From NCBI GenBank assembly GCA_964016885.1, contig OZ024743.1, positions 332,072,001-332,136,000 on the forward strand: a stretch of DNA of 64,000 nt, in the 5' to 3' direction. Each line of letters opens with the position of its first letter. The stretch's first letter is position 1. A program made the position numbers and the translations under genes. The notes under the pieces are model-generated. The model did no database searches. It worked only from the letters and a program-made list of their open reading frames with translations, and was not told where the DNA came from. This document shows, in pieces, positions 164 to 64,000 of this stretch. The DNA comes from Eledone cirrhosa (taxonomy: Eukaryota).

Positions 164-762
164 TCTTTTAGTGATACACTTTCAAAGAAGATGATGGGTT
201 TGAGTGTTTTTAACACCATTACCTTTTTCTAATGACAGTACATATGATGTTGAAAATAATCAAGAATTTTGAAGGATTTAGTAATTTAATGTATACATAG
301 CTAATATTGAAATGCATATAGATATACCGCTATTATTATTTAAATAAGTATGTTTATATACATAGATACATGTAAGTATATATATGTATATATATATATA
401 TGTATGTATATGTAAAAGGAAAACAAAAATAACAAATAAATGGCACAGTACATGGAAGAAATATATTAGTTTAACACTTGTAATAAGGATATATGTATAT
501 AAATATCATGAACTAAATATGTGCTTATTTATATGTGTATATGCATAAATATGAGGTCTCTCTCTCTGTCTGTCTGCTGTCTGTCTGAGGATAGTAGACG
601 TGTGTCATGTCGCTCTGTGATTTGGATTTTTACCTGCTAATTTTGTGAGTGGATTTTTTTTGAATTATTTTGTATAATTAACTGTAACCCCTAGTCTGGG
701 ACTCTAGACGTCGGGTAAATATATTTTCACCCCTTTTGGGGTGAAAAATAAATATTTGAGAA

Positions 763-2511
763 ATGTTCATCGATATCGTTGATAACGATATCGTCGAAAA
801 CGATATCGCCATATTGGAAGCGAACGCCACGCCGACCAAAAAAACAAGCGGGAAAGAGGGAACAACAGTTCAAACTGTTGAACAACCCCTCCTCTCCAAT
901 GAAAAAAAGAATTTCAATTCAAATGAAAAAATTAATTTTCAAGAAAAAAATAACACCACAAATAAGGAAACCAACAACATTACAACAACAAACAAAGACA
1001 AAATTTCTTTTGCCCAAACACTCAAGAGAGCCACGGAGTACAAAGCCATTGACATCACGAACGCCAAGGAAAATTTGCTAGAAGCTAGAAAATACGTATC
1101 TTTTGGGGAGGATGGTTCTTTTACGATCAACTCCCCAGAAGAAGTGCGTCAACAGATTTACAAGAATACCGTAAGCTTCAGAACCATAACCAACGAAACG
1201 AGAAAGCCAGCGCAATTGACCGAAAGTCAAATCGAGCTGGTTCTGAAAGAAATTAAAAATGACATACTCTTTATTCAAAGAGGAAAGCTGTATGCCAGCA
1301 TTATGGTCCGAATGAAGGACGAAATGCTGGCTCAGAAATATTCGGTGGCACCTATAGTGTCACCACAATACACCTTCTTCCCCACATATAAAGGAAGAAG
1401 AACACAAAGGATAAGAATGTGGAGCCCTACGCCAGAAATTAACATCTGGTCCGTCCTAACAGGATTTACCGACCTAGATAAGGACATACTAATTTCAGCA
1501 GGGGAGTCCACCAGTGGACTGTTCGGGGGGAAAAGTCTGGAGGTTCTCTTACAGATGACACCTGAGAGAATCTCCGGAATACCCGACCGAGTGCTACTGG
1601 ATGGGCGAACCTACATAAATATCACAGTGGAAGGCAGGAGACCCTCATGTTACCACTGCGCTGGCAGAGGTCACCTGAGGACGGCCTGCCCTCTACTAAC
1701 AACTAAAAAACCACTGCTACAAACACCACAACAACAACAAAAACAACCAGCACCACCATCACAAAAACAACAAAATACACTACCATCTCAACCAGAACAA
1801 CAAAAACCAACAACACCACCACCACAACAACAACAACATCAACAACAGCTCAAGAAAACAACCCAAAACACGGTCCCACCCAGCCCCACCCCACAGAACA
1901 CAAATACAAAAACAGTTCATACACAACCCGGAGATATACCCCTCCCCTCCAATACGGAAGAGGAGCTCATATCGTCGGAAGACGAGGGGGCTCCCTTCCA
2001 AAAAGTGAAAAGAAAAAAACGTACACACACCACAACAACAAAAATAACCCCACCTGACAACACAACACAGACAATAAAACGCAAACTCACTCAACAACAA
2101 CAAGCAAAAACAAACACAACAACACAAAAACTCTACACATACATAAACAAAAACAATGAAAACCTAACTTTAAAAATAGAAACCAACCCTTCGATACAAA
2201 CCGAAGGGCCGAATTTCGTAACGGCAATGGGGCTCCCTAACCTGAAAATGGTGAAAATCCCACTTGACATTTTCAAAACTTTAAAAGACATGTACCCTGA
2301 GGACGTGGGCCCACCCTGCACCAGGCCACTCAACCGCGTCCTCCTGAAAGGTTTTCCCCTCCCCTCCTCAAACACCCACACAACTCCAAAGATCCCAACC
2401 CCTCCACACACTAATACCCCCACACCACCACAAACCACCACCCCACCCATCAACCCCGCCACCAGCCCCATGGAAACTGAGCGACCCGAACCCCGGGACG
2501 CAGAGAGGTAA
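763..2511 (+). CDS. LINE ORF1 (gag-like nucleic-acid-binding protein), 582 aa
   Basis: CCHC zinc knuckle CYHCAGRGHLRTAC followed by a Q/P/T-rich disordered tail with a basic KVKRKKR patch. Ends 23 nt upstream of ORF2. Confidence 0.88.
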   Translation: MFIDIVDNDIVENDIAILEANATPTKKTSGKEGTTVQTVEQPLLSNEKKNFNSNEKINFQEKNNTTNKETNNITTTNKDKISFAQTLKRATEYKAIDITNAKENLLEARKYVSFGEDGSFTINSPEEVRQQIYKNTVSFRTITNETRKPAQLTESQIELVLKEIKNDILFIQRGKLYASIMVRMKDEMLAQKYSVAPIVSPQYTFFPTYKGRRTQRIRMWSPTPEINIWSVLTGFTDLDKDILISAGESTSGLFGGKSLEVLLQMTPERISGIPDRVLLDGRTYINITVEGRRPSCYHCAGRGHLRTACPLLTTKKPLLQTPQQQQKQPAPPSQKQQNTLPSQPEQQKPTTPPPQQQQHQQQLKKTTQNTVPPSPTPQNTNTKTVHTQPGDIPLPSNTEEELISSEDEGAPFQKVKRKKRTHTTTTKITPPDNTTQTIKRKLTQQQQAKTNTTTQKLYTYINKNNENLTLKIETNPSIQTEGPNFVTAMGLPNLKMVKIPLDIFKTLKDMYPEDVGPPCTRPLNRVLLKGFPLPSSNTHTTPKIPTPPHTNTPTPPQTTTPPINPATSPMETERPEPRDAER

Positions 2512-2534
2512 GTGCCTCTTTCTTTGCCACCAAC

Positions 2535-5500
2535 ATGGCTGTCTTAAGAGTAGGTTGTCTAAATGCGCGTGGCCTGGGCTCACCTTGGAAGCAAGCTAAA
2601 CTTCTAAGTGACCTCAGGTCACAATGTGTAAATGTGATGGTTATTTGCGAGGCCCGGATCAGCAGCATGCGACAGCTAACCCCCACCTTTGATGACTTTG
2701 AGATGCACGCATCTCTCTGTCAGCCTGGAGGTGGGGGTGGGGTTGTCGTTCTGCTGCAAAAACATCTGGGTCTCGCTACACAGACGGTACACTTGGACCC
2801 GGAGGGTCGACTCGTGGTTCTGGACCTTGGCAATGGCGAAGGCGAAGCTTTTAGGCTTGTCGCCGTATACGCCCCTTTTGGGGCAATGCGGTCGGACTTC
2901 TTCCATCATCTGGAGACTTTTCTAGGGACTTCCCGCTCCTTGCTTTTAGTGGGGGACTGGAATGGTATCCTAGATGCACGTTGGGACTATGTAGGGGCAT
3001 GTCCCGATAGAGGGGGGTGTAACAGCCTTAAGGGGTTAATCGGCCGATTCGACCTGGCCGATAGATACCGACTAGATTTTCCGACTGTACCAACCTGGAC
3101 CTGGTCAAATAACAGTGGTCAATCTAGATCGTACCTAGATAGGTTCTTAGTTAGAATTAAGGATAGGGACTTTTTAAGTTGTCCAGAAATGCTCATGGTG
3201 GGCTATTCAGACCACAAGTTAGTGACCTGCGTAGTCCACCTTGATAGAACGCATAGGCAGGGGCCCGGTTACTGGAAGCTCAACTTGTCCTTACCGGCAA
3301 GTAGAGCTTACAGGGACCGGATTAGAACCTTAGTTAAGGAGCAGTTGACGGGCGCCATCGTCAACAACAGGTGGTGGGGATCTCTAAAAAGAGAGATTAG
3401 AGTAGTTTCAATAGGAGTTAGTAAGGAGTTAGCCTCAGATAGAAATAGGAAGGAAAGGGAGTTGGTAGTTAATGTTGAAGAGGCAATGAGAAGCGGCAAC
3501 GTGGCCAGAGTGCAAGCGTCGAGAACGGTCTTGAACCAGTTCTTCGATGCGAAACACGAAGGCTGCGTTGTCCGAAGCAAAATACGTGCTCTGGGAAACG
3601 AGGGGACCAAAGCTGTTAGCTGGGCCCGCGTGACAGAAGCGAAAAGTGGGATTAAATCCACTATCCGGTCTTTGCGAGACCAGGATGGACGGCTGATCCT
3701 TGAACCTAAGCAAATGTGCGAGGCCTTTCAAAGGCACTTTGCCCAATTGTTCGGGAGGGGCGGGGAGCCGGTTGGAGATGTGGATTTCGGTCCATACCTC
3801 GACGGCCTGCCGCGTCTTTCGGACAGGGAGGCGAGGTCCTGCGACGGGCCGATCTCAGCTGCTGAAATAGGGGACGTGCTGAGCCTATGCGGCAAACGCA
3901 AATCTCCAGGACTCGATGGTCTGCCCTACGAACTATATATTAATATGCCGGACTTGTTCCCCAATCTCCTCGAGGCGGTCTACTGCAACTGGCAACAGAA
4001 CGGGAGAATTCCCTGTTCTGTGACCAAGGGCGTAGTCTCGCTAGTGAGGAAGGACGAGAACAAGGGGGATGACATTAGTAATTTTAGGCCCATAACTCTG
4101 CTAAATGCAGAGTTAAAGATTTTGGCGAAGGTGTTAGCGAAGAGGTTGGCGCTTGTCGTGGGGAGCCTGGTGGGAGATGCGCAGACATGCGCTATCCCGT
4201 CCAGGTCCATCCACGACAACCTCCACCTCATGCGATACATCACAGAGAGGGTTGGGAACGAACCCGGCTTTGGTGGGGCCCTGATAAATTTAGATCAGTC
4301 TAAAGCGTTCGATAGGGTGAACCATGGTTACCTGGATGCGGTGCTAGCGGCGGCTGGGTTCGGACCCGTTTTCAGGGGCTGGATCACTGCCATGCACAGC
4401 AGCCGCATCTGCTCTAGAATCAAGGTGAACGGCTACCTTTCGGAGCCGTTCGAAATCACCCGCTCCATCCGACAGGGGTGCCCTCTCTCCTCCCTTCTGT
4501 ATGTATTGACTCTCGAGCTATTACTGCGGAAGTTGGAGTTGTTGCAGGGCATCCCTTTGGAACCGGGATTGCGCAAAGCGGTGTCGGCCTACGCCGATGA
4601 CGTAACAGTAATGGTGTCGACCGCCTCGGAAATCGAGGCAATCGGCACATTACTAGAGGAGTACGAAAGGTTGACAGGGGCTAAGCTGAACCGGGACAAG
4701 TCAGTCGCTTTGCAACTCGGCGAGTGGAGGGGCAAAGCGATGTCGTGCGACGGTATCGTCGGACGGTGGACGGAGGGCCCGGTGAAGTTGCTTGGGGTCT
4801 GGTTCGGACCGGACCTCCAGGTGGAGAAAAACTGGGGTGAGGTGACGAATAGGGTGTTTGCACTGACCCAGAAGTGGGCCGAGTGCAAACTATCCCTAAA
4901 AGGTCGGGCGGAGGTGGCGAACGCTTACATAGCGTCCGTCATCTATTACCGCTTGACTGTCGTGCCTTGCCCGGGTGAGATCCTCGCCAAAATGGAGCGC
5001 GCCCTCTTTTATTTCCTTTGGAAGAAGAGGTCTCCTCTAGTGAGGAGATCCATCTGCTGTCAACACCCTTTGAAAGGAGGGCTGGGGATGCCGTGGCTAA
5101 AAATGCGTAAACACGCATTGAGGCTAAGGCACCTCCACGTATTCCTCACCGGTCAACCGGTGTGGGCCCCGTTTGTGAGGCGAGCCTTCCCGAGGCTCGT
5201 CTCGCTCACCGAGCTGCAGTCCTGGGTGAAGCAAAGACCGAGAAAACTGGGCGACTGGCACACCGAGTGTGCCCAGGCGCTCACGGCTCTCTGGCAGGCG
5301 GACCCGGCTATCGACGGAGACTCCACCTCGTCATTCTATAGAGGGCTGGTGGTTAGCGGGTGCGACGACGCCCTCGGAGAAGCCCTAGGCATGGAGGAGG
5401 ACGAACTGGCCAGTCTATTCGGTAGGACTTTCGGCCCGGGACCTATGGACAACTTCCAGAAGTCCTTGGCCTGGCAGTGCTACCGAGGGGCTCTGCCCGT

Positions 5501-5972
5501 TCGGGATAAGCTCTACAGACACGGGCGCCCGGGTAGGGACCCCTCGAAAAAGATCTGTCCCAGATGCGTGCGCGACGAGGAAACCGTCGCGCACGCATTG
5601 GTGCACTGCCCGGGCGTTGCCGATCTGTGGGGCTATGTTGAACAACTGCTGTCACGGGTGGGACCAATTAGGTTGACCACCGAGTCCATTGTAACGATCA
5701 AGCCGCCTCCCCGCTTCAAAAATGAAGGAGAGGCGGTCTTCCTCTGTGTAATAGCCATGGTAAAAGAGGCTATATGGTGGACGCGTCTGAAAGGGCTGAG
5801 GTCGGACACCTTTCTCTCCGGCCAACAACTGGTCCTTTTCTTCCGATACCATTTCGGAAGAAGGATCAGGATGGAGAGAGAGGTGCTCCACTCCAGCCAG
5901 TTTTATGAAAGGTGGGTGAAAGTTGCGAGAATGGCCCGTGTGAATGGGCCTTCTCTCTACCTCAGCCTGTAG
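2535..5972 (+). CDS. LINE ORF2: APE endonuclease + reverse transcriptase + C-terminal CCHC zinc finger (Tx1/L1-like), 1145 aa
   Basis: APE motifs LNARGL, VYAP, GDWN, YLDR, SDH. RT motifs SPGLDGLP, FRPITLLN, LDQSKAFDRV, RQGCPLS, YADD. C-terminal CPRC..ETVAHALVHC. No stops or frameshifts. Confidence 0.96.
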   Translation: MAVLRVGCLNARGLGSPWKQAKLLSDLRSQCVNVMVICEARISSMRQLTPTFDDFEMHASLCQPGGGGGVVVLLQKHLGLATQTVHLDPEGRLVVLDLGNGEGEAFRLVAVYAPFGAMRSDFFHHLETFLGTSRSLLLVGDWNGILDARWDYVGACPDRGGCNSLKGLIGRFDLADRYRLDFPTVPTWTWSNNSGQSRSYLDRFLVRIKDRDFLSCPEMLMVGYSDHKLVTCVVHLDRTHRQGPGYWKLNLSLPASRAYRDRIRTLVKEQLTGAIVNNRWWGSLKREIRVVSIGVSKELASDRNRKERELVVNVEEAMRSGNVARVQASRTVLNQFFDAKHEGCVVRSKIRALGNEGTKAVSWARVTEAKSGIKSTIRSLRDQDGRLILEPKQMCEAFQRHFAQLFGRGGEPVGDVDFGPYLDGLPRLSDREARSCDGPISAAEIGDVLSLCGKRKSPGLDGLPYELYINMPDLFPNLLEAVYCNWQQNGRIPCSVTKGVVSLVRKDENKGDDISNFRPITLLNAELKILAKVLAKRLALVVGSLVGDAQTCAIPSRSIHDNLHLMRYITERVGNEPGFGGALINLDQSKAFDRVNHGYLDAVLAAAGFGPVFRGWITAMHSSRICSRIKVNGYLSEPFEITRSIRQGCPLSSLLYVLTLELLLRKLELLQGIPLEPGLRKAVSAYADDVTVMVSTASEIEAIGTLLEEYERLTGAKLNRDKSVALQLGEWRGKAMSCDGIVGRWTEGPVKLLGVWFGPDLQVEKNWGEVTNRVFALTQKWAECKLSLKGRAEVANAYIASVIYYRLTVVPCPGEILAKMERALFYFLWKKRSPLVRRSICCQHPLKGGLGMPWLKMRKHALRLRHLHVFLTGQPVWAPFVRRAFPRLVSLTELQSWVKQRPRKLGDWHTECAQALTALWQADPAIDGDSTSSFYRGLVVSGCDDALGEALGMEEDELASLFGRTFGPGPMDNFQKSLAWQCYRGALPVRDKLYRHGRPGRDPSKKICPRCVRDEETVAHALVHCPGVADLWGYVEQLLSRVGPIRLTTESIVTIKPPPRFKNEGEAVFLCVIAMVKEAIWWTRLKGLRSDTFLSGQQLVLFFRYHFGRRIRMEREVLHSSQFYERWVKVARMARVNGPSLYLSL

Positions 5973-18397: not shown

Positions 18398-18690
18398 ATA
18401 TATATAAACCCAAAAAATGAAACGAAATTTCATTTCTCACTCTTAGTACGGCTGTTACTTAAATATAAGTATGTATACGTACATACATATATGTATACAG
18501 ACGTACAGTAGTATGCATATATATATATATATATACATATATACATACATGCATACATATATATATATGTACGTATGGATTCACCGAACATTTATTATAA
18601 TGCTCGGAGTGTTTGTAAACAAACATCCCGAATTAAGCCGTACAGTGTCTAGCAACCATCGTTGCTCATTTGTTCAACACTGACAAAGGA

Positions 18691-18733
18691 ACGCTGTACT
18701 AGTTTCAAGCTTATTAGCTATCGTCAGCAACGT
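18691..18733 (-). ncRNA. Minimal type I hammerhead ribozyme
   Basis: Minus strand reads ACGUUG-CUGACGA-UAGCUAAUAAGCUU-GAAA-CUAG-UA/CAGCGU. Intact core, 6-bp stem I, AGCU/AGCU stem II, palindromic stem III, GUA cleavage triplet. Confidence 0.8.
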
Positions 18734-19233
18734 ATACCTTCCTGCCAGATGGTTGAACGTCTGAAAGTATATACTTTCCTTATGCATATTAACGGCTGAG
18801 CAGCCTAATTTGCATACCAAGTGAGTTAATCGGCCGGGGTACCGAAAACGATAAACAGAAAAAATGAAACGTATGTACGGCTTAATTCGGGATATTTGTT
18901 TACAAACACGCCGAGCATTATAATAAATGTTTGGTGAATCCATACGTACATATATATATGTGTGCATGTATGTATATATGTATATATATATATATATATA
19001 TATGCATACTACTGTACGTCTGTATACATATATGTATGAACGTATACATACTTATATTTAAGTAACAGCCGTACTAAGAGTGAGAAATGAAATTTCGTTG
19101 CATTTTTTCCGTTTATCGTTTTAGGTACCCCGGCCGATTAACTCACTCGATATGCAAATTAGGCTGCTCAGCCATTAATATGCATAAGGAAAGTAAATAC
19201 TTTCAGACGTTCAACCATCTGGCAGGAAGGTAT

Positions 19234-19276
19234 ACGTTGCTGACGATAGCTAATAAGCTTGAAACTAGTACAGTGT
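19234..19276 (+). ncRNA. Minimal type I hammerhead ribozyme
   Basis: ACGTTG-CTGACGA-TAGCTAATAAGCTT-GAAA-CTAG-TA/CAGTGT. Predicted cleavage after position 19270. Confidence 0.78.
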
Positions 19277-19543
19277 TCTTTTGTCAGTATTGAACAAATG
19301 AGCAACGATGGTTGCTAGACACTGTACGGCTTAATTCAGGATGTTTGTTTACAAACACTCCGAGCATTATAATAAATGTTCGGTGAATCCATACGTACAT
19401 ATATATATATGTGTGCATGTATGTATATATGTATATATATATATATATATATATGCATACTACTGTACGTCTGTATACATATATGTATGTACGTATACAT
19501 TCTACTGTACGTCTGTATACATATATGTATGTACGTATACATA

Positions 19544-19613
<70 letters not shown>

Positions 19614-19631
19614 TTGGTGCTCTGAAATAGC

Positions 19632-19880
19632 TATATATATATGAATGTATATATAGTGTATTTTGCAATACACTGTATGCTTAATTAAAAGCATTTCGAA
19701 GACCTTATGCTATTGTTTTAGAGTAGTGACAGTCTCACTTACTTTAATTTTCAGTTGCTGAAAATTAAAGTAAGGTGAGTCTGTCACTACTCTAAAACAA
19801 TAACATAAGGTCTTCGAAATGCTTTTAATTAAGCATACAGTGTATTGCAAAATACACTATATATACATTCATATATATAT
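19632..19880. repeat. Near-perfect palindrome (~120-bp arms, 3-nt loop at 19755-19757)
   Basis: The arms differ by about two substitutions and one indel. Embedded in (TA)n. Confidence 0.9.
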
Positions 19881-38435: not shown

Positions 38436-38473
38436 TATATATATATATATAGAAAATTTAACCAACATACACC

Positions 38474-40570
38474 ATGGACCTTTATGAATTGGATTATTCA
38501 ATCAAAAATATACCTACTCCTTCCAACACAACTTATACCAAAATGCTTATAGATAAAATCGAACAAGTCGTTAAAAGAATGAGATGGAAGGCAATGGTTT
38601 ACGATGGACTATTCAGTGCTGATACTAATGATTGTTTTGACATAAAATCCCGTAAATATCCACCTAGAATTAAAGACATGGCTAACTTCGAATTAGACCT
38701 TGTTAATTTAATTAGTGATATCAAATTTCGTAACTACAATAATAATTTTCAAACTAAACTGTCTAACGATATTTCTAATTTTAAAAATTCTACAAACACC
38801 TTTGTTCTTTCTGATAAAACTAAAAATCTCTTTGAAGTTAATAGTATTTTGTATAACCAACTTTTAACTAATAGTATCACCAACAAATATCAATTAACTA
38901 ATAATAATACCTACAATACTATTAATAAAGAAGATAAAGAACTAGCTAGTTCTTTAAAAATAGACAACCGGATTGAAAGCCTAGCTAAGCGTAAAGCATA
39001 TATTACCCTTAAAGACCATAAATTAGACTCTACTAGTCGACCTAGTTGTAGACTGATTAACCCGGCTAAATCCGAAGTTCGCCTTGCAAGTAAAAAAATC
39101 TTAAGAAAAATAATTCTCCAAATTAGAACTAAGACTGACCTATCACAGTGGCTAAATACTTCCTCTGTTATTTCTTGGTTTAATAATATACAAGGTAAAA
39201 ATAAGTGTAGATTTACCGAATTTGATATTGTTGATTTTTACCCCTCTATTACCGTTTCCTTATTAACTAATGCCTTAGAGTTTGCAAGACCCTTCATTAA
39301 TATTTCTAAATTAGAAGAAGACATTATCTTTCATGCTAGAAAAACTTTACTCTTTACTAATGAAAATATTTGGGTTAAAAAGTCAAACCCTGAAAACTCT
39401 TTTGATGTTGCAATGGGTTCATATGATAGTGTGGATGTGTGTGACTTAGTAGGCTTATTCCTTCTCCACAACCTCAAAAAGAAATTTCCTTCCCATAATA
39501 TCGGTTTATACCGTGATGACGGATTGGCAGTTTCTCATACCACCAACGGCCATAACCTTGATAAATTCCGTAAAGATTTAATCAATACTTTTGCTAATCT
39601 TAACCTTAAAATTACTATAGATACAAACCTTACCAATGCTAACTTTCTTGACATTAATCTTGATCTACTTACCGCCTCTTTTAAACCTTATCATAAACCT
39701 AATGAAAATCTTAGGTATATACACAAAGAGTCTTGCCATCCCCCTATAGTTTTTAAAAATCTTATTCCCAACATTAGCCGTAGGATTTCTACCTTATCTT
39801 CGTCTATAGACATTTTTAATAAAGCCGCCCCTTATTATAATAAAGCCCTTAAAAACAGCAGTTTTACAGAACAAATTTATTATATACCTACTCCCCCCCC
39901 CCCCTAAAACTAACCACAATAATAGGAAAAGGAAAATTATTTGGTTTACACCCTCCTTCTCTCTGTCAAAACTAATGTAGGAAGGAAATTCCTTGAACTC
40001 TTAGATAAACATTTTCCTCCTAATCATAGATATTATAAGATATTTTGCCCATCAATGAAGTCCAAGATCACTAATTCAAATCATACGAGAACAAATCCAG
40101 GATGCAGTTGCAGGAAGCCGGATGAATGCCCATTGCAGGGCAAATGTAACACCAAATCTGTTGTTTACGAGGCTAAAGTGACACCTTTAATCAACAACGA
40201 GCCAGCCAGGAGTGAGCGATATGTTGGCATGACCCAGGACAGGTTTAAAACCAGGTTTTATGCACATGTCGCTTCTTTTAAGCACTCCGATAAACGAACA
40301 ACAACAGCCCTCGCAAGTAAGGTGTGGGAATTCAAGAATAAAAACATCCCGTACTCTATCGATTGGTCTATTTTAGACCATTCGAGGGAGTACCAAAGGG
40401 GCACAAAGAATTGTTCTTTGTGTACCACAGAAAAATATAGGATTTTGCTAAGCTTGAAAGCCACTTCTGCTTGCCTGAACTCAAAGACCGAGATCTTCAG
40501 ATGTTGTCCTCATCTGAAATCACATCTGATCTGTAACTGGATTGACATTCCTATAACTCAACCACCTTGA
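38474..40570 (+). pseudogene. Penelope-like retroelement ORF (RT + C-terminal GIY-YIG endonuclease), resembling the Hydra clade; two compensating frameshifts and a small deletion
   Basis: N-terminal YSIKNIP..RMRWKA; SDKTKN; RT motifs FDIVDFYPSI, VAMGSYD, LYRDDGL, NFLDINL; linker CSCRKPDECPLQGKC; endonuclease VVYEAKV..YVGMT..FKTRFYAH..CSLC..EK..LNSKTE..CCPH. The bridging peptide RKRKIIWFTP is in another frame at 39921-39960, between a C12 run and a CT repeat. Confidence 0.9.
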
Positions 40571-54190: not shown

Positions 54191-54287
54191 ATTTACAGAA
54201 CCATCCCACCATTTTGTCTGCCTTTACTTCTCTTTTGAATTATTTCACCTAAGTTCGGTATCTTGGTATTTAATGTTTTTGGCGAAG

Positions 54288-57200
54288 TCATACAATGTGT
54301 ACCTGGGTATTTTAAACTCTAAGCTAGTGATACAATGTGTACCTAGGTATTTTAAACTCTAGGCTAGTGATGCAATGTGTACCTGGGTAGTTTAAACTCT
54401 TGGCTAGTGATACGATGTGTACCTGGGTATTTAAAACTCTAGGCTAGTGATGCAATGTGTACCTGGGTATTTAAAACTCTAGGCTAGTGATGCAATGTGT
54501 ACCTGGGTAGTTTAAACTCTAGGCTAGTGATACAATGTGTACGTGGGTATTTAAAACTCTAGGCTAGTGATGCAATGTGTACCTGGGTATTTAAAACTCT
54601 AGGCTAGTGATGCAATGTGTACCTGGGTAGTTTAAACTCTAGGCTAGTGATACAATGTGTACCTGGGTATTTAAAACTCTAGGCTAGTGATACAATGTGT
54701 ACCTGGGTATTTAAAACTCTAGGCTAGTGATGCAATGTGTACCTGGGTAGTTTAAACTCTTGGCTAGTGATACAATGTGTACCTGGGTATTTAAAACTGT
54801 AGGCTAGTGATACAATGTGTACCTGGGTATTTAAAACTCTTGGCTAGTGATACAATGTGTACCTGGGTATTTAAAACTCTAGGCTAGAGATACAATGTGT
54901 ACCTGGGTAGTTTAAACTCTTGGCTAGTGATACAATGTGTACCTGGGTATTTACAACTCTAGGCTAGTGATGCAATGTGTACCTGGGTAGTTTAAACTCT
55001 TTGCTAGTGATACAATGTGTACCTGGGTATTTATAACTCTAGGCTAGTGATACAATGTGTACCTGGGTATTTATAACTCTAAGCTAGTGATACAATGTGT
55101 ACCTAGGTATTTTAAACTCTAAGCTAGTGATAAAATGTGTACCTGAGTATTTAAAACTCTAGGTTAGTTATACAATGTGTACCTGGGTATTTATAACTCT
55201 AGGCTAGTGATACAATGTGTACCTGGGTGTTTAAAACTCTAGATTAGTGATACAATGTGTACCTGGGTATTTAAAACTCTAGGCTGGTGATACAATGTGT
55301 ACCTGGGTATTTTAAACTCTAGGCTAGCGATACAATGTGTACCTGGGTGTTTAAAACTCTAGGTTAGTTATACAATGTGTACCTGGGTATTTATAAATCT
55401 AGGCTAGTGATACAATGTGTACCTGGGTGTTTAAAACTCTAGGTTAGTGATACAGTGTGTACCTGGATATTTAAAACTCTAGGCTGGTGATACAATGTGT
55501 ACCTGGGTATTTATAACTCTAGGCTAGTGATACAATGTGTATCTGGGTATTTAAAACTCTAGGCTAGTGATACAATGTGTACCTGGGTATTTATAACTCT
55601 AGGCTAGTGATACAATGTGTACCTGGGTATTTAAAACTCTAGGTTAGTGATACAATGTGTACCTGTGTATTTAAAACTCTAGGCTAGTGATACAATGTGT
55701 ACCTGGGTATTTTAAACTCTACGATAGTGATACAATGTGTACCTGGATATTTAAAACTCTAGGCTAGTGTTACAATGTGTACCTGGGTATTAAAAACTCT
55801 TGGCTAGTGATACAATGTGTACATGGGTATTTAAAACTCTAGGCTAGGGATACAATGTGTACTTGGGTGTTTAAAACTCTAGGCTAGTGATACAATGTGT
55901 ACAAGGGTATTTAAAACTCTAGGCTAGGGATACAATGTGTACCTGGGTATTCAAAATTCTAGGTTAGTGATACAATGTGTACCTGGGTATTTAAAACTCT
56001 TGGCTAGTGATACAATGTGTACCTGGGTATTTAAAACTCTTGGCTAGTGATACAATGTGTACCTGGGTATTTAAAACTCTTGGCTAGTGATACAATGTGT
56101 ACCTGGGTATTTAAAACTCTTGGCTAGTGATACAATGTGTACCTGGATATTTAAAATTCTAGGCTAGTGATACAATGTGTACCTGGGTATTTAAAATTCT
56201 AGGCTAGTGATACAATGTGTACCTGGGTATTTAAAACTCTAGGCTAGTGATACAATGTGTACCTGGATATTTACAATTCTAGGCTGGTGATACAATGTGT
56301 ACCTGGGTATTTAAAATTCTAGGCTAGTGATACAATGTGTACCTGGGTATTTATAACTCTAGGCTAGTGATACCATGTGTACCTGGATATTTAAAATACT
56401 AGGCTAGTGATACAATGTGTACCTGGGTATTTAAAATTCTAGGCTAGTGATACAATGTGTACCTGGGTATTTAAAACTCTTGGCTAGTGATACAATGTGT
56501 ACCTGGATATTTAAAACTAGGTTAGTGATACAATGTGTACCTGGGTATTTATAACTCTAGGCTAGTGATACAATGTGTACCTGGATATTTAAAATACTAG
56601 GCTAGTGATACAATGTGTACCTGTGTATTTAAAACTCTAGGCTAGTGATACAATGTGTACCTGGATATTTAAAACTCTAAGCTAGTGATACAATGTGTAC
56701 CTGGGTATTTAGTGCCCTAAGCTAGCCATACAATGTGTACCTGGGTATTTAAAACTAGGTTAGTGATACAATGTGTATCTGGGTATTTAAAACTCTAGGC
56801 TAGTGATACAATGTGTACCTGGGTATTTAAAACTCTACGCTAGTGATACAATGTGTACCTGGATATTTAAAATTCTAGGCTAGTGATACAATGTGTACCT
56901 GGGTATTTAAAATTCTAGGCTAGTGATACAATGTGTACCTGGGTATTTAAAACTCTAGGCTAGTGATACAATGTGTACCTGGATATTTACAATTCTAGGC
57001 TGGTGATACAATGTGTACCTGGGTATTTAAAATTCTAGGCTAGTGATACAATGTGTACCTGGGTATTTATAACTCTAGGCTAGTGATACAATGTGTACCT
57101 GGATATTTAAAATACTAGGCTAGTGATACAATGTGTACCTGGGTATTTAAAATTCTAGGCTAGTGATACAATGTGTACCTGGGTATTTAAAACTCTTGGC

Positions 57201-60200
57201 TAGTGATACAATGTGTACCTGGATATTTAAAACTAGGTTAGTGATACAATGTGTACCTGGGTATTTATAACTCTAGGCTAGTCATACAATGTGTACCTGG
57301 ATATTTAAAATACTAGGCTAGTGATACAATGTGTACCTGTGTATTTAAAACTCTAGGCTAGTGATACAATGTGTACCTGGATATTTAAAACTCTAAGCTA
57401 GTGATACAATGTGTACCTGGGTATTTAAAACTAGGTTAGTGATACAATGTGTACCTGGGTATTTATAACTCTAGGTTAGTGATACAATGTGTACCTGGGT
57501 ATTCAAAATTCTAGGTTAGTGATACAATGTGTACCTGGGTATTTAAAACTCTTGGCTAGTGATACAATGTGTACCTGGATATTTAAAATTCTAGGCTAGT
57601 GATACAATGTGTACCTGGGTATTTAAAATTATAGGCTAGTGATACAATGTGTACCTGGGTATTTATAACTCTAGGCTAGTGATACAATGTGTACCTGGGT
57701 ATTTATAACTCTAGGCTAGTGATACAATGTGTACCTGGGTATTTAAAACTCTAGGCTAGCGATACAATGTGTACCTGGGTATTTAAAACTCTTGGCTAAT
57801 GATACAATGTGTACCTGGGTATTTAAAACTCTTGGCTAATGATACAATGTGTACCTGGGTATTTAAAACTCTTGGCTAGTGATACAATGTGTACCTGGGT
57901 ATTTAAAACTCCAGGCTAGCGATACAATGTGTACCTGGGTATTTAAAACCCTTGGCTAGTGATACAATGTGTAACTTGGTATTTAAAACTCTAGGCTAGT
58001 GATACAATGTGTACCTGGGTATTTATAACTCTAGGCTAGTGATACAATGTGTACCTGGGTATTTAAAACCCTTGGCTAGTGGTACAATGTGTAACTTGGT
58101 ATTTAAAACTCTTGGCTAATGATACAATGTGTACCTGGGTATTTAAAACCCTTGGCTAGTGATACAATGTGTAACTTAGTATTTAAAACTCTTGGCTAGT
58201 GATACAATGTGTACCTGAGTATTTAAAACTCTAGGTTAGTGATACAATGTGTACCTGAGTATTTAAAACTCTAGGCTAGTGATACAATGTGTATCTGTGT
58301 ATTTATAACTCTAGGCTAGTGATAAAATGTGTACATGGGTTATTTATAACTTTAGGCTAGTGATACAATGTGTACCTGGGTATTTAAAACTCTTGGCTAG
58401 TGATATAATGTGTACCTGGATATTTAAAACTCTTGGCTAGTGATACAATGTGTACCTGGGCATTTAAAACTCTTAGCTAGTGATACAATGTGTACCTGGG
58501 CATTTAGTGCCCTAAGCTAGCCATACAATGTGTACCTGGGTATTTAAAACTCTTGGCTAGTGATACAATGTGTACCTGGATATTTAAAACTAGGTTAGTG
58601 ATACAATGTGTACCTGGGTATTTATAACTCTAGGTGAGTGACACAATGTGTACCTGGGTATTTATAACTCTAGGCTAGTGATACAATGTGTACCTCGATA
58701 TTTAAAATTCTAGGCTAGTGATACAATGTGTACCTGGGTATTTAAAACTCTTGGCTAGCGATAAAATGTGTACATGGGTATTTAAAACTCTAGGCTAGTG
58801 ATACAATGTGTACCTGGATATTTAAAATTCTAGGCTAGCTATACAATGTGTACCTGGGTATTTAGTGCCCTAAGCTAGCGATACAATGTGTACCTGGATA
58901 TTTAAAACTCTAAGCTAGTGATACAATGTGTACCTGGGTATTTAGTGCCCTAAGTTAGCGATACAATGTGTACCTGGGTATTTAAAACACTAGGCTAGTG
59001 ATACAATGTGTACCTGGGTATTTAAAACACTTGGCTAATGATACAATGTGTACCTGGGTATTTAAAACCCTTGGCTAGTGATACAATGTGTAACTTGGTA
59101 TTTAAAACTCAAGGTTAGTGATACTATGTGTACCTGGGTATTTAAAACTCTTGGCTAGTGATACAATGTGTACCTGGGTGGGTATTTAAATCTCTTTGCT
59201 AGTGCTATAATGTGTACCTGAATATTTAAAACTCTAGGCTAGCGATACAATGTGTACCTGGGTATTTAAAACTTTAGGCTAGTGATACAATGTGTACCTC
59301 GGTATTTAAAACTCAAGGTTAGTGATTCAATCTGTACCTAGGTATTTAAAACTCTAGGCTAGTGATACAATGTGTACCTGGGTATTTAAAACTCAAGGTT
59401 AGTGATACAATGTGTACCTGGATATTTAAAACTCTAGGCTAGTGATACAATGTGTACCTGGATATTTAAAACTCTAGGTTAGTGATACAATGTGTACCTG
59501 GTATTTAAAACTCTAGGTTAGTGATACAATGTGTACCTGGGTATTTAAAACTCTAGGCTAGTGTTACAATGTGTACCTGGGTATTTAAAACTCTAGGTTA
59601 GTGATACAATGTGTACCTGGGTATTTAAAACTTTAGGCTAGTGATACAATGTGTACCTGGGTATTCAAAATTCTAGGTTAGTGATACAATGTGTACCTGG
59701 GTATTTAAAACTCTTGGCTAGTGATATAATGTGTACCTGGATATTTAAAACTCTTGGCTAGTGATACAATGTGTACCTGGGCATTTAAAACTCTTAGCTA
59801 GCTATATAATGTGTGCCTGGGTATTTAGTGCCCTACGCTAGCCATACAATGTGTACCTGGGTATTTAAAATTCTAGGCTAGTGATACAATGTGTACCTGG
59901 GTGTTTAAAACTCTAGGCTAGTGATACAATGTGTACCTGGATATTTATAACTCTAGGCTAGTGATACAATGTGTACCTGGGTATTTAAAACTCTAGGCTA
60001 GTGATACAATGTGTACCTGGATATTTAAAATTCTAGGCTAGTGATACAATGTGTACCTGGGTATTTAAAATTCTAGGCTAGTGATACAATGTGTACCTAG
60101 GTATTTAAAACTCTAGGCTAGTGATACAATGTGTACCTGGATATTTAAAATTCTAGGCTGGTGATACAATGTGTACCTGGGTATTTAAAATTCTAGGCTA

Positions 60201-63200
60201 GTGATACAATGTGTACCTGGGTATTTATAACTCTAGGCTAGTGATACAATGTGTACCTGGATATTTAAAATTCTAGGCTAGTGATACAATGTGTACCTGG
60301 GTATTTAAAATTATAGGCTAGTGATACAATGTGTACCTGGGTATTTATAACTCTAGGCTAGTGATACAATGTGTACCTGGGTATTTATAACTCTAGGCTA
60401 GTGATACAATGTGTACCTGGGTATTTAAAACTCTAGGCTAGCGATACAATGTGTACCTGGGTATTTAAAACTCTTGGCTAATGATACAATGTGTCCCTGG
60501 GTATTTAAAACTCTTGGCTAATGATACAATGTGTACCTGGGTATTTAAAACTCTTGGCTAGTGATACAATGTGTACCTGGGTATTTATAACTCTAGGCTA
60601 GCGATACAATGTGTACCTGGGTGTTTAAAACCCTTGGCTAGTGATACAATGTGAAACTTGGTATTTAAAACTCTAGGCTAGTGATACAATGTGTACCTGG
60701 GTATTTATAACTCTAGGCTAGTGATACAATGTGTACCTGGGTATTTAAAACCCTTGGCTAGTGATACAATGTGTAACTTGGTATTTAAAACTCTTGGCTA
60801 ATGATACAATGTGTACCTGGGTATTTAAAACCCTTGGCTAGTGATACAATGTGTAACTTGGTATTTAAAACTCTTGGCTAGTGATACAATGTGTACCTGA
60901 GTATTTAAAACTCTAGGTTAGTGATACAATGTGTACCTGAGTATTTAAAACTCTAGGCTAGTGATACAATGTGTATCTGTGTATTTATAACTCTAGGCTA
61001 GTGATAAAATGTGTACATGGGTTATTTATAACTTTAGGCTAGTGATACAATGTGTACCTGGGTATTCAAAACTCTTGGCTAGTGATATAATGTGTACCTG
61101 GATATTTAAAGCTCTTGGCTAGTGATACAATGTGTACCTGGGCATTTAAAACTCTTAGCTAGCTATATAATGTGTACCTGGGTATTTAGTGCCCTACGCT
61201 AGCCATACAATGTGTACCTGGGTATTTAAAATTCTAGGCTAGTGATACAATGTGTACCTGGGTATTTAAAACTCTAGGCTAGTGATACAATGTGTACCTG
61301 GATATTTAAAATTCTAGGCTAGTGATACAATGTGTACCTGGATATTTAAAACTCTAGGCTGGTGATACAATGTGTACCTGGGTATTTATAACTCTAGGCT
61401 AGTGATACAATGTGTACCTGGGTATTTATAACTCTAGGCTAGTGATACAATGTGTACCTGGGTATTTAAAACTCTAGGCTGGTGATACAATGTGTACCTG
61501 GGTATTTATAACTCTAGGCTAGTGATACAATGTGTACCTGGGTATTTATAACTCTAGGCTAGTAATACAATGTGTACCTGGGTATTTAAAACTCTAGGCT
61601 AGCGATACAATGTGTACCTGGGTATTTAAAACTCTTGGCTAGTGATACAATGTGTACCTGGGTATTTAAAACCCTTGGCTAATGATACAATGTGTAACTT
61701 GGTATTTAAAACTCTAGGCTAGTGATACAATGTGTACCTGGGTATTTAAAACTCTAAGCTAGCTATACAATGTGTACCTGGGTATTTAAAACTCTAGGCT
61801 AGCGATACAATGTGTACCTGGGTATTTAAAACTCTTGGCTAGTGATACAATGTGTACCTGTGTATTTAAAACTCTAGGTTAGTGATACAATGTGTACCTG
61901 GGTATTTGAAACTCTAGGCTAGGGATACAATGTGTACCTGGGTATTTTAAACTCTAAGCTAGTGATACAATGTGTACCTGGATATTTAAAACTCTAGGCT
62001 AGTGATACAATGTGTACCTGGGTATTTATAACTCTAGGCTAGTGATACAATGTGTACCTGGGTATTTAAAACTCTAGGCTAGTGATACAATGTGTACCTG
62101 GATATTTAAAATTCTAGGCTAGTGATACAATGTGTACCTGGGTATTTAAAATTCTAGGCTAGTGATACAATGTGTACCTAGGTATTTAAAACTCTAGGCT
62201 AGTGATACAATGTGTACCTGGATATTTAAAATTCTAGGCTGGTGATACAATGTGTACCTGGGTATTTAAAACCCTTGGCTAATGATACAATGTGTACCTG
62301 GGTATTTAAAACTCTTGGCTAGTGATACAATGTGTACCTGGGTATTTATAACTCTAGGCTAGCGATACAATGTGTACCTGGGTGTTTAAAACCCTTGGCT
62401 AGTGATACAATGTGTAACTTGGTATTTAAAACTCTAGGCTAGTGATACAATGTGTACCTGGGTATTTATAACTCTAGGCTAGTGATACAATGTGTACCTG
62501 GGTATTTAAAACCCTTGGCTAGTGATACAATGTGTAACTTGGTATTTAAAACTCTAGGCTAGTGATACAATGTGTACCTGGGTATTTATAACTCTAGGCT
62601 AGTGATACAATGTGTACCTGGGTATTTAAAACCCTTGGCTAGTGATACAATGTGAAACTTGGTATTTAAAACTCTAGGCTAGTGATACAATGTGTACCTG
62701 GGTATTTATAACTCTAGGCTAGTGATACAATGTGTACCTGGGTATTTAAAACCCTTGGCTAGTGATACAATGTGTAACTTGGTATTTAAAACTCTTGGCT
62801 AATGATACAATGTGTACCTGGGTATTTAAAACCCTTGGCTAGTGATAAAATGTGTAACTTGGTATTTAAAACTCTTGGCTAGTGATACAATGTGTACCTG
62901 AGTATTTAAAACTCTAGGTTAGTGATACAATGTGTACCTGAGTATTTAAAACTCTAGGCTAGTGATACAATGTGTATCTGTGTATTTATAACTCTAGGCT
63001 AGTGATAAAATGTGTACATGGGTTATTTATAACTTTAGGCTAGTGATACAATGTGTACCTGGGTATTTAAAACTCTTGGCTAGTGATATAATGTGTACCT
63101 GGATATTTAAAACTCTTGGCTAGTGATACAATGTGTACCTGGGCATTTAAAACTCTTAGCTAGCTATATAATGTGTACCTGGGTATTTAGTGCCCTACGC

Positions 63201-64000
63201 TAGCCATACAATGTGTACCTGGGTATTTAAAATTCTAGGCTAGTGATACAATGTGTACCTGGGTATTTAAAACTCTAGGCTAGTGATACAATGTGTACCT
63301 GGATATTTAAAATTCTAGGCTAGTGATACAATGTGTACCTGGATATTTAAAACTTTAGGCTAGTGATACAATGTGTACCTCGGTATTTAAAACTCAAGGT
63401 TAGTGATTCAATCTGTACCTAGGTATTTAAAACTCTAGGCTAGTGATACAATGTGTACCTGGGTATTTAAAACTCAAGGTTAGTGATACAATGTGTACCT
63501 GTGTATTTAAAACTCTAGGTTAGTGATACAATGTGTACCTGGGTATTTGAAACTCTAGGCTAGGGATACAATGTGTACCTGGGTATTTTAAACTCTAAGC
63601 TAGTGATACAATGTGTACCTGGATATTTAAAACTCTAGGCTAGTGATAAAATGTGTACCTGGATATTTAAAACTCTAGGTTAGTGATACAATGTGTACCT
63701 GGTATTTAAAACTCTAGGTTAGTGATACAATGTGTACCTGGGTATTTAAAACTCTAGGCTAGTGTTACAATGTGTACCTGGGTATTTAAAACTCTAGGTT
63801 AGTGATACAATGTGTACCTGGGTATTTAAAACTTTAGGCTAGTGATACAATGTGTACCTGGGTATTCAAAATTCTAGGTTAGTGATACAATGTGTACCTG
63901 GGTATTTAAAACTCTTGGCTAGTGATATAATGTGTACCTGGATATTTAAAACTCTTGGCTAGTGATACAATGTGTACCTGGGCATTTAAAACTCTTAGCT
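54288..64000. repeat. 40-bp satellite array (~240 monomers, runs off the window); consensus GATACAATGTGTACCTGGGTATTTAAAACTCTAGGCTAGT
   Basis: Strict 40-bp period with occasional 38-, 39-, 41- and 43-bp variants. No unique spacers. Confidence 0.98.

What the first reader, a model, noticed from the sequence alone, without database searches (positions are those of the whole stretch)
18412..19550. ~450-nt hammerhead-bearing monomer in inverted + tandem, circularly permuted arrangement (retrozyme-like)
Seen: 18412-18871 is one full monomer with terminal redundancy (AAAAAATGAAACG at 18412 and 18859). It is followed by ~1.5 monomers in the opposite orientation starting at a different register (period 449). 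Each orientation has an intact minimal type I hammerhead (18691-18733 minus, 19234-19276 plus) with a palindromic CUAG stem III. There is no ORF, and a (TA)-rich microsatellite is part of the unit. Known: Penelope-like pLTRs and metazoan non-LTR retrozymes carry such minimal hammerheads, which are proposed to cleave as dimers, and retrozymes yield small circular RNAs. Inference: this is a non-autonomous ribozyme retroelement copied from a circular or multimeric RNA by a Penelope-like RT. I cannot tell whether the family has been described.
Basis: partly seen in the sequence, partly recalled or inferred. Interest (0 to 1): 0.8.

Follow-up and report, generated by a model that had tools for sequence, protein, structure and literature searches.

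The report
Hammerhead retrozyme riding Penelope transposons
This is one of tens of thousands of copies of a short non-coding repeat that carries a hammerhead-ribozyme motif and has the same insertion ends as Penelope-type retrotransposons, so it likely spreads by borrowing their enzyme and is likely copied from a circular RNA.

Summary
Real, and a large family. The locus is one insertion with two head-to-head arms (18404-18871 minus, 18874-19550 plus) of a ~450-nt non-coding unit, sitting in a (TA)n tract. Its 33-nt hammerhead core occurs 10,110 times exactly in the genome; a looser 20-mer occurs 28,183 times. The hammerhead is a canonical metazoan type I with an extended stem I and a compensatory pair, not a PLE 'minimal' one. 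The ends are not freely permuted. 5' ends vary, but 3' ends fall at two fixed sites 60 nt apart, which is the Penelope 'tail'. In inverted pairs one arm ends at each site (29 of 30 classifiable events; 8 of 8 in a sister family). Copy counts show no step at the ribozyme cut, so the template was circular or uncleaved. No coding body is attached, and three Penelope-like families examined do not share the unit. Verdict: a new non-LTR retrozyme family, likely mobilised in trans by a (TA)n-targeting Hydra-clade Penelope RT. Cleavage, circular RNA and the partner enzyme are untested.

The parts
18404..18871 (-). Arm 1: 5'-truncated at u45, 1.04 units, 3' end at site A (tail tip, ...TTTAT then (AT)n)
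18404..18463 (-). 60-nt tail (site B to site A), terminal copy; present at this end of the insertion only
18469..18574 (-). TA-rich self-complementary tract M (predicted long hairpin)
18691..18733 (-). Type I hammerhead, predicted cut after GUA at 18697
   Evidence: cut site by the standard hammerhead consensus (recalled)
18872..18873 (.). Head-to-head (5'-5') junction, 2 extra bases
18874..19550 (+). Arm 2: 5'-truncated at u272, about 1.4 units plus a 42-nt duplication, 3' end at site B (CATACTTAT then (AT)n)
19057..19116 (+). Internal copy of the tail; 19057 is site B and 19116 is site A in unit coordinates
   Evidence: loose (AT)n contig ends at 19116 and 19057
19209..19295 (+). Extended hammerhead domain: stem I with internal loop and two further helices
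19234..19276 (+). Hammerhead proper: stem I 6 bp, CUGACGA, U.U plus 3-bp stem II with UAAUAA loop, GAAA, 1-bp stem III with CUAG loop; predicted cut after 19270
19067..19331 (+). Long-range helix 19067-19073 with 19325-19331, linking the tail to the segment 3' of the ribozyme; 2 of 7 pairs change on both sides
19551..19608 (.). (TA)n target tract; on the other side the flank is short (AT)n after the (GAT)n end of a LINE
19609..19871 (.). Separate short head-to-head insertion, 77% like the tail region of sister family F2, also with one A-type and one B-type end

Best explanation
A non-coding ~450-nt unit with a type I hammerhead motif, present in tens of thousands of copies, is likely a non-LTR retrozyme that a (TA)n-targeting Penelope-like (likely Hydra-clade) RT-endonuclease copies in trans, likely from a circular RNA. 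Shown: the copy number, (TA)n targets, two fixed 3' ends 60 nt apart, variable 5' ends, head-to-head arms with one A end and one B end, read-through of the cut site, conserved and covarying RNA helices, and no attached ORF. Inferred steps: (1) tandem loci are transcribed; (2) the hammerheads cut, probably as dimers given the 1-bp palindromic stem III, and a host ligase closes monomers and some multimers into circles; (3) the PLE protein cuts both strands of a (TA)n tract and primes each 3' end at one of two internal start sites, A on one strand and B on the other; (4) each RT runs round the template for a variable distance, giving 0.1 to more than 20 units; (5) the two cDNA ends are joined, giving the head-to-head structure with the tail at one end. 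Confidence in 'non-autonomous and PLE-mobilised' is about 0.85; the figure below includes the circular template.
For: Ends: of 164 arms in 97 loci, 76 end at A, 55 at B, 11 inside M and 22 elsewhere. Of 52 head-to-head rows, 31 are A+B (29 independent), 1 is A+A and 0 are B+B; p 1.4e-8 for 29 of 30 against independent ends. A further 15 of 19 hand-picked loci are A+B and none is A+A. Sister family F2: 8 of 8 pairs with both ends in view are A+B, and one has a 12-15-nt target duplication around both arms. PMC11167929 shows that a PLE RT starts at two internal sites that define the tail and extends both strands. Read-through: 20-mers 5' and 3' of the cut number 28,183 and 29,751, ratio 1.056; 136 5' ends are spread, 9 in the u220-239 bin against a mean of 8.5. 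Structure: stem I pair U-G/A-U/G-U 13/13/12 in 43 units; 97.7% of cells paired; covariation 0.121 against 0.080 shuffled, 0 of 500. F2 keeps the same architecture with different letters in every helix. Circle: young F2 arrays hold up to 27 hammerheads of mostly one haplotype, and a 308-nt variant fills both arms of L206; young F1 arrays are 99.5-100% uniform. Partner: the PLE at window 38462-40570 has the RWK, DKT and CxCX5C motifs that define Hydra; Hydra elements insert into (TA)n (PMC8557442); a related family, E, also shows two ends into (TA)n; three mixed PLE/unit junctions were seen (L139, L142, L054).
Against: No cleavage or circular RNA is shown. The hammerhead has two weak features (U.U at the base of stem II, 1-bp stem III); 8 of 9 predicted Xenopus dimers did not cleave (bioRxiv 2026.07.22.740005) and the anole PLE used unprocessed RNA (PMC11167929). 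Many F1 arrays are not uniform: 9 of 17 arrays with two or more full units average under 97.5% identity within the array; there are ABAB and 4-unit higher-order repeats and subfamily-mixed arrays whose switch is not at the cut site (L094). These need multimeric templates, nested insertion or DNA-level duplication. The number of pairs with two-sided change (6 of 39) is not above the shuffle (54 of 500), and relatedness inflates the score. No PLE family with matching sequence was found, so the partner is unidentified; the mixed junctions may be nested insertions at a shared target. 10 B+other and 6 A+other rows were left out of the A+B test. B ends were called by a regular expression and checked by eye for L031-L108 only.
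Confidence: 0.6

Rival explanations
1. Same element and same PLE enzyme, but the template is an uncleaved linear multimer transcribed from existing arrays. The hammerhead cleaves little or late, and arrays lengthen at the DNA level.
For: Read-through of the cut site fits equally well. Unprocessed RNA was the main substrate for the anole PLE (PMC11167929). Heterogeneous, ABAB and 4-mer higher-order arrays exist, including one of more than 50 units. The ribozyme looks weak as a monomer.
Against: 5' truncation can only shorten arrays, yet young dispersed insertions with intact A/B ends hold up to 27 near-identical units with locus-specific haplotypes in both arms. The ribozyme and its extended stem are kept across subfamilies 17% apart and in F2.
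Confidence: 0.25
2. The unit is the terminal repeat (pLTR) of a rare coding Penelope-like element, and the copies are its 5'-truncated products.
For: Fixed 3' ends, tail, inverted arms and a hammerhead are all pLTR features (PMC8557442, PMC3846280). 24 of 57 Xenopus retrozyme families match known TEs, nearly all PLEs, at their pLTRs (bioRxiv 2026.07.22.740005). In L139 a near-full PLE ORF leads directly into the unit. Only about 160 of thousands of loci were examined, most from one chromosome.
Against: Arms that pass u1 continue into the previous unit; the unit closes on itself. Among 91 free 5' flanks the only shared non-unit sequence reaching the junction is one duplicated event. The unit is absent from 29 of 29 other loci of PLE family C, 30 of 30 of family W and 18 of 18 other loci of family E; C and E have their own, different hammerheads. 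A pLTR-derived ancestor is not excluded.
Confidence: 0.1
3. A satellite or foldback repeat spread by DNA-level processes, with a chance or relic hammerhead.
For: One array of more than 50 units with a 4-unit higher-order repeat shows that DNA-level expansion happens. Rfam support is below threshold.
Against: Dispersed copies at about one locus per 0.5 Mb, fixed 3' with variable 5' ends, the A+B rule, a target duplication and compensatory RNA pairs are not explained.
Confidence: 0.03

Closest known systems
Metazoan non-LTR retrozymes (PMC7229834; coral, mussel, axolotl Rtz331/Rtz353)
   Same: Non-coding 150-450-bp tandem units with one type I hammerhead each, low GC, thousands of copies, highly self-paired predicted circle. 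The 1-bp stem III with palindromic tetraloop matches HHR_Amex1; the U.U at the base of stem II matches HHR_Amex2.
   Different: At or above the top of the size range (420-500 nt); both weak features in one ribozyme; a TA-rich hairpin inside the unit; (TA)n targeting, two fixed 3' ends and head-to-head arms are not described in the parts read. RNA not shown here.
Retrozymes as non-autonomous PLE derivatives (bioRxiv 10.64898/2026.07.22.740005)
   Same: Same thesis: retrozymes depend on PLEs.
   Different: That work argues from co-occurrence and pLTR homology, mainly in vertebrates, and leaves the mechanism open. Here the evidence is the integration signature, and no homologous pLTR was found.
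EN+ Penelope-like elements: tail and two RT start sites (PMC11167929, PMC3846280, PMC8557442)
   Same: Partial tandems, an inverted 5'-truncated arm, a tail at one end only, AT-rich targets, 3' ends internal to the RNA and downstream of the hammerhead.
   Different: No ORF; the tail is 60 nt rather than 30-40; strict A+B pairing is quantified, whereas in vitro no strand difference in start site was seen.
Hydra-clade PLEs (PMC8557442) and non-autonomous Chlamys elements such as MRC1
   Same: Hydra: (TA)n insertion and hammerheads, with abundant members in this genome. MRC1-type: non-autonomous, multicopy head-to-tail.
   Different: Non-autonomous Chlamys elements generally resemble their autonomous family at the 3' end and most Chlamys lack hammerheads; here only a short AT-rich likeness to the 3' end of family C was seen.

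Membership tests
Type I hammerhead ribozyme | Core CUGANGA, GAAA, UH with stems I-III in type I order | tested here: met
   Both window copies; core nearly invariant in 43 units, though many loci were picked by the core.
Type I hammerhead ribozyme | Helices supported by compensatory change | tested here: met
   Stem I pair U-G/A-U/G-U, outside the search pattern; all helices re-lettered in F2. Stems II and III do not vary within F1, so F1 alone says nothing on them.
Type I hammerhead ribozyme | Rfam gathering threshold | tested here: not met
   HH9 15.9 bits against 52.
Type I hammerhead ribozyme | Self-cleavage | not testable with these tools
   Needs in vitro transcription.
PLE min-HHR (PMC4209133) | Helix II 7-8 bp, helix I 4-5 bp, no helix III needed | tested here: not met
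   Helix I 6 bp plus extension, helix II 3 bp plus U.U; fits the 'canonical' description.
Non-LTR retrozyme | Non-coding tandem units of a few hundred bp, a hammerhead in each, many copies | tested here: met
   The window locus itself has one hammerhead per arm, so it would not count as 'active' under the two-consecutive-hammerhead rule of the 2026 preprint.
Non-LTR retrozyme | No LTR, PBS or PPT organisation | tested here: met
   The unit closes on itself with no internal body between repeats. PBS and PPT were not searched separately.
Non-LTR retrozyme | Expressed as linear and circular monomer RNA | not testable with these tools
   No raw RNA reads were available to lay.
PLE-mobilised element | Two fixed 3' ends (tail), 5' truncation, partial tandems, inverted 5' arm | tested here: met
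PLE-mobilised element | Target-site duplication | tested here: inconclusive
   Hidden in (TA)n for F1, and the script misplaced B boundaries; one clear 12-15-nt case among 8 F2 pairs.
Autonomous PLE or its pLTR | RT plus GIY-YIG ORF attached at a recurrent position | tested here: not met
   sample-limited.
Hydra clade (candidate partner, window 38462-40570) | RWK, DKT, CxCX5C linker, C-terminal endonuclease | tested here: met
   Motifs read in the translations; no tree built; no Pfam hit.
Hydra clade (candidate partner, window 38462-40570) | Acts on this RNA | not testable with these tools
   Needs a TPRT assay.

The most novel reading that the evidence does not exclude
A viroid-sized, ribozyme-made RNA circle is replicated into the genome by rolling-circle reverse transcription, in which one Penelope RT dimer must use start site A on one target strand and start site B on the other. 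Two unrelated circles (about 36,000 ribozyme copies together) obey the same rule, giving direct genomic evidence of which enzyme moves animal retrozymes and of how PLE tails and inversions arise.
Probability: 0.4. Interest if true: 0.75.

Novelty: new member of a known kind. Interest (0 to 1): 0.55.

Why it matters
Which enzyme mobilises animal retrozymes is open: PLEs are called 'a strong candidate' (PMC7229834) and the 2026 preprint leaves the mechanism unresolved. This family carries the PLE integration signature on a purely non-coding ribozyme unit, with thousands of events to count. It supplies a 450-nt RNA (310 nt for F2) with two predicted start sites and candidate RTs in the same genome, so the question becomes a direct in vitro test. 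The A+B rule also constrains how PLEs make tails and inverted arms. The class itself is known, so the surprise is moderate.

Tried and rejected
Rfam: the 4-kb scan gave only microsatellite-driven miRNA/sRNA matches, all below gathering scores. Expression: no RNA holder listed; the three runs laid are contigs of one sample of unrecorded kind, possibly the source, so not independent. L023/L139 as the autonomous parent: rejected, 0 of 29 other family-C loci carry the unit. Window PLE family and family E as parents: 0 of 30 and 0 of 18 other loci. Cleaved linear monomer as template: rejected by the absence of a step at the cut and of a 5'-end pile-up; the nearest ends were u221 (one) and u224-231 (several, mostly at inversion junctions). 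Subfamily switches at the cut site, which would mark end-to-end jumping: not seen in L094; not tested systematically. Strict L1-type twin priming and fold-back copying: rejected by reasoning, because the inner end of one arm does not match the outer end of the other and in the window neither arm is contained in the other. Cofolding two hammerheads gave pairing through the palindromes but not a clear double-hammerhead fold; uninformative. The target-duplication script failed for F1. A genome-wide count of tandem pairs was not obtained. Earlier findings: nothing by sequence, words or place. Literature searches found no description of this family; repeat libraries (Repbase, Dfam) and paper supplements were not seen and may hold it. 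'Octopus' and 'cephalopod' as search terms were my guess from genome size and microsatellite load, untested.

Full report
Observation. The sequence shows a minus-sense arm at 18404-18871 and a plus-sense arm at 18874-19550, joined 5' to 5' by two extra bases, 96% identical, period 449. I number the unit from 19052 (u1) to 19392 (u341), followed by a 90-120-nt TA-rich tract M. Each arm holds one hammerhead (18691-18733 minus, 19234-19276 plus), with the predicted cut after u219 = 19270. There is no credible ORF. The left flank is the (GAT)n/(AT)n end of a LINE (RT and endonuclease domains); the right flank is (TA)n.

Family size. The host is a 3.0-Gb genome. The 33-nt core matches exactly 10,110 times, reversed control 0; a 20-mer that allows the loop variant matches 28,183 times. 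At least three subfamilies exist, down to 82% identity with the window copy, with units of 420-500 nt. I fetched the 78 regions covering the first 100 core matches on contig C1 and 19 more picked by a downstream motif without an exact core match; these 97 loci are the counting sample. Further loci were hand-picked for arrays and divergence.

The ribozyme. Stem I has 6 bp, stem II has a U.U then 3 bp and a UAAUAA loop, and stem III is one pair capped by CUAG. Beyond an internal loop, stem I continues through three more helices. This is the canonical metazoan type I form of PMC4209133 (passages), not the PLE min-HHR, and it combines the weak features of the two axolotl retrozyme ribozymes (PMC7229834). 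One stem I pair is U-G, A-U or G-U in 13, 13 and 12 of 43 units. Over 39 named pairs 97.7% of cells pair, covariation 0.121 against 0.080 shuffled (0 of 500), but the count of pairs with two-sided change (6) is reached by 54 of 500 shuffles, and relatedness inflates these measures. A second family, F2 (310 nt, 9,220 core matches), has the same architecture with different letters in each helix. Three natural monomers folded as circles give z of -7 to -11 against 25 shuffles, largely because M is a long hairpin. Rfam gives only HH9 at E 0.14. Cleavage is not shown.

The ends. 3' ends are fixed. Of 164 arms, 76 end at u65 or within about 15 nt of it (site A), 55 at about u5 (site B), 11 inside M and 22 elsewhere, nearly always into (TA)n. 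Inverted arms are head-to-head (52 rows against 2 tail-to-tail). Where both ends are classifiable, 29 of 30 independent events are A+B, one is A+A and none is B+B (p 1.4e-8); 20 rows with an unclassified or in-M end were not in that test. The window obeys the rule. So do 15 of 19 further loci (3 had one unclassified end, 1 was not a pair) and 8 of 8 F2 pairs, whose sites are 26 nt apart. One F2 pair in a non-repetitive target is flanked by a 12-15-nt duplication, which indicates that both arms are one event. This matches the PLE tail, known to lie at one end of an insertion (PMC3846280, PMC8557442, passages) and shown to be the stretch between two internal RT start sites of an enzyme that cuts and extends both strands (PMC11167929, parts 1-3 of 4 read).

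The template. 5' ends are scattered (136 within U; 9 in the bin at the cut, mean 8.5). Genome-wide, 20-mers on either side of the cut differ by 5.6%, about what steady truncation over 31 nt would give; the two motifs were not calibrated for match rate. So the RT reads through the cut, and the template is a circle or an uncleaved multimer. For a circle: young arrays are long and uniform with locus-specific haplotypes in both arms (F2 up to 27 hammerheads, commonest haplotype from 7 of 14 to 6 of 6 units; F1 L144, L184, L186 and L189 99.5-100%), and truncation alone cannot keep arrays long. Against: many F1 arrays are mixed, some ABAB, and one of more than 50 units has a 4-unit repeat; and the anole PLE prefers unprocessed RNA. 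I put circle against linear multimer at about 70:30.

The partner. No coding body is attached. In 91 free 5' flanks the only shared non-unit sequence at the junction is one duplicated event. The genome is rich in Penelope-like elements with Hydra-clade motifs, a clade reported to insert into (TA)n. Three such families were checked and none carries the unit (0 of 29, 0 of 30, 0 of 18 other loci). Families C and E have their own hammerheads and end in (TA)n, E at two sites. Three loci join PLE and unit directly (L139, L142, L054); template switching or nested insertion would both explain them. The partner is therefore inferred at clade level only.

Comparison and novelty. It works like a non-autonomous PLE and meets the sequence-level definition of a non-LTR retrozyme (PMC7229834, parts 2-4 of 6 and passages read; bioRxiv 10.64898/2026.07.22.740005, parts 1-3 of 5 read; PMC8557442, section 11 and passages read); the RNA criterion could not be tested. 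The class and its proposed PLE dependence are in print. In searches I found neither this family nor tail and A+B ends reported for a retrozyme; supplements and repeat libraries were not seen. Verdict: new member of a known kind, with a useful mechanistic signature. Interest 0.55.

Noticed in passing
L060, L184:6634-9002, L087, L198-L207: Sister retrozyme-like family F2: 310-nt unit, 9,220 core matches, very young, arrays up to 27 hammerheads, 26-nt tail, same A+B rule. A better substrate for experiments than F1.
   Followed up: partly
window 19609-19871: The 125-nt inverted repeat next to the finding is an old, truncated two-arm insertion 77% like F2, inserted in the (TA)n at the B end.
   Followed up: partly
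window 38462-40570: Broken Penelope-like element with Hydra-clade motifs; no Pfam hit; at least 150 close relatives in the genome.
   Followed up: partly
L110-L138 (PLE family C), 3' UTR: Hammerhead-like motif with about 100 nt inserted in stem II and a CGAUCG palindrome in stem III; family E has a 35-nt stem II and UGCGCA. These would escape standard descriptors.
   Followed up: no
L160-L162 (G000:C1 about 51.77-51.79 Mb): Array of more than 50 F1 units with a 4-unit (1,713-nt) higher-order repeat: a retrozyme turning into satellite DNA.
   Followed up: partly
L139:3550-7392: Near-full family-C PLE with an inverted 5' arm whose 3' end is replaced by 1.3 F1 units ending at site A; a possible template switch.
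   Followed up: partly
L014, L046, L061, L070, L092, L095; L052, L058, L065, L080, L099; L105: Further recurrent hammerhead-like motifs of other repeat families near the loci.
   Followed up: no
window 54286-63995: Satellite of 243 copies of a 40-nt unit.
   Followed up: no
window 760-5972: LINE-like element with a 583-aa and a 1,163-aa open frame, apparently intact.
   Followed up: no
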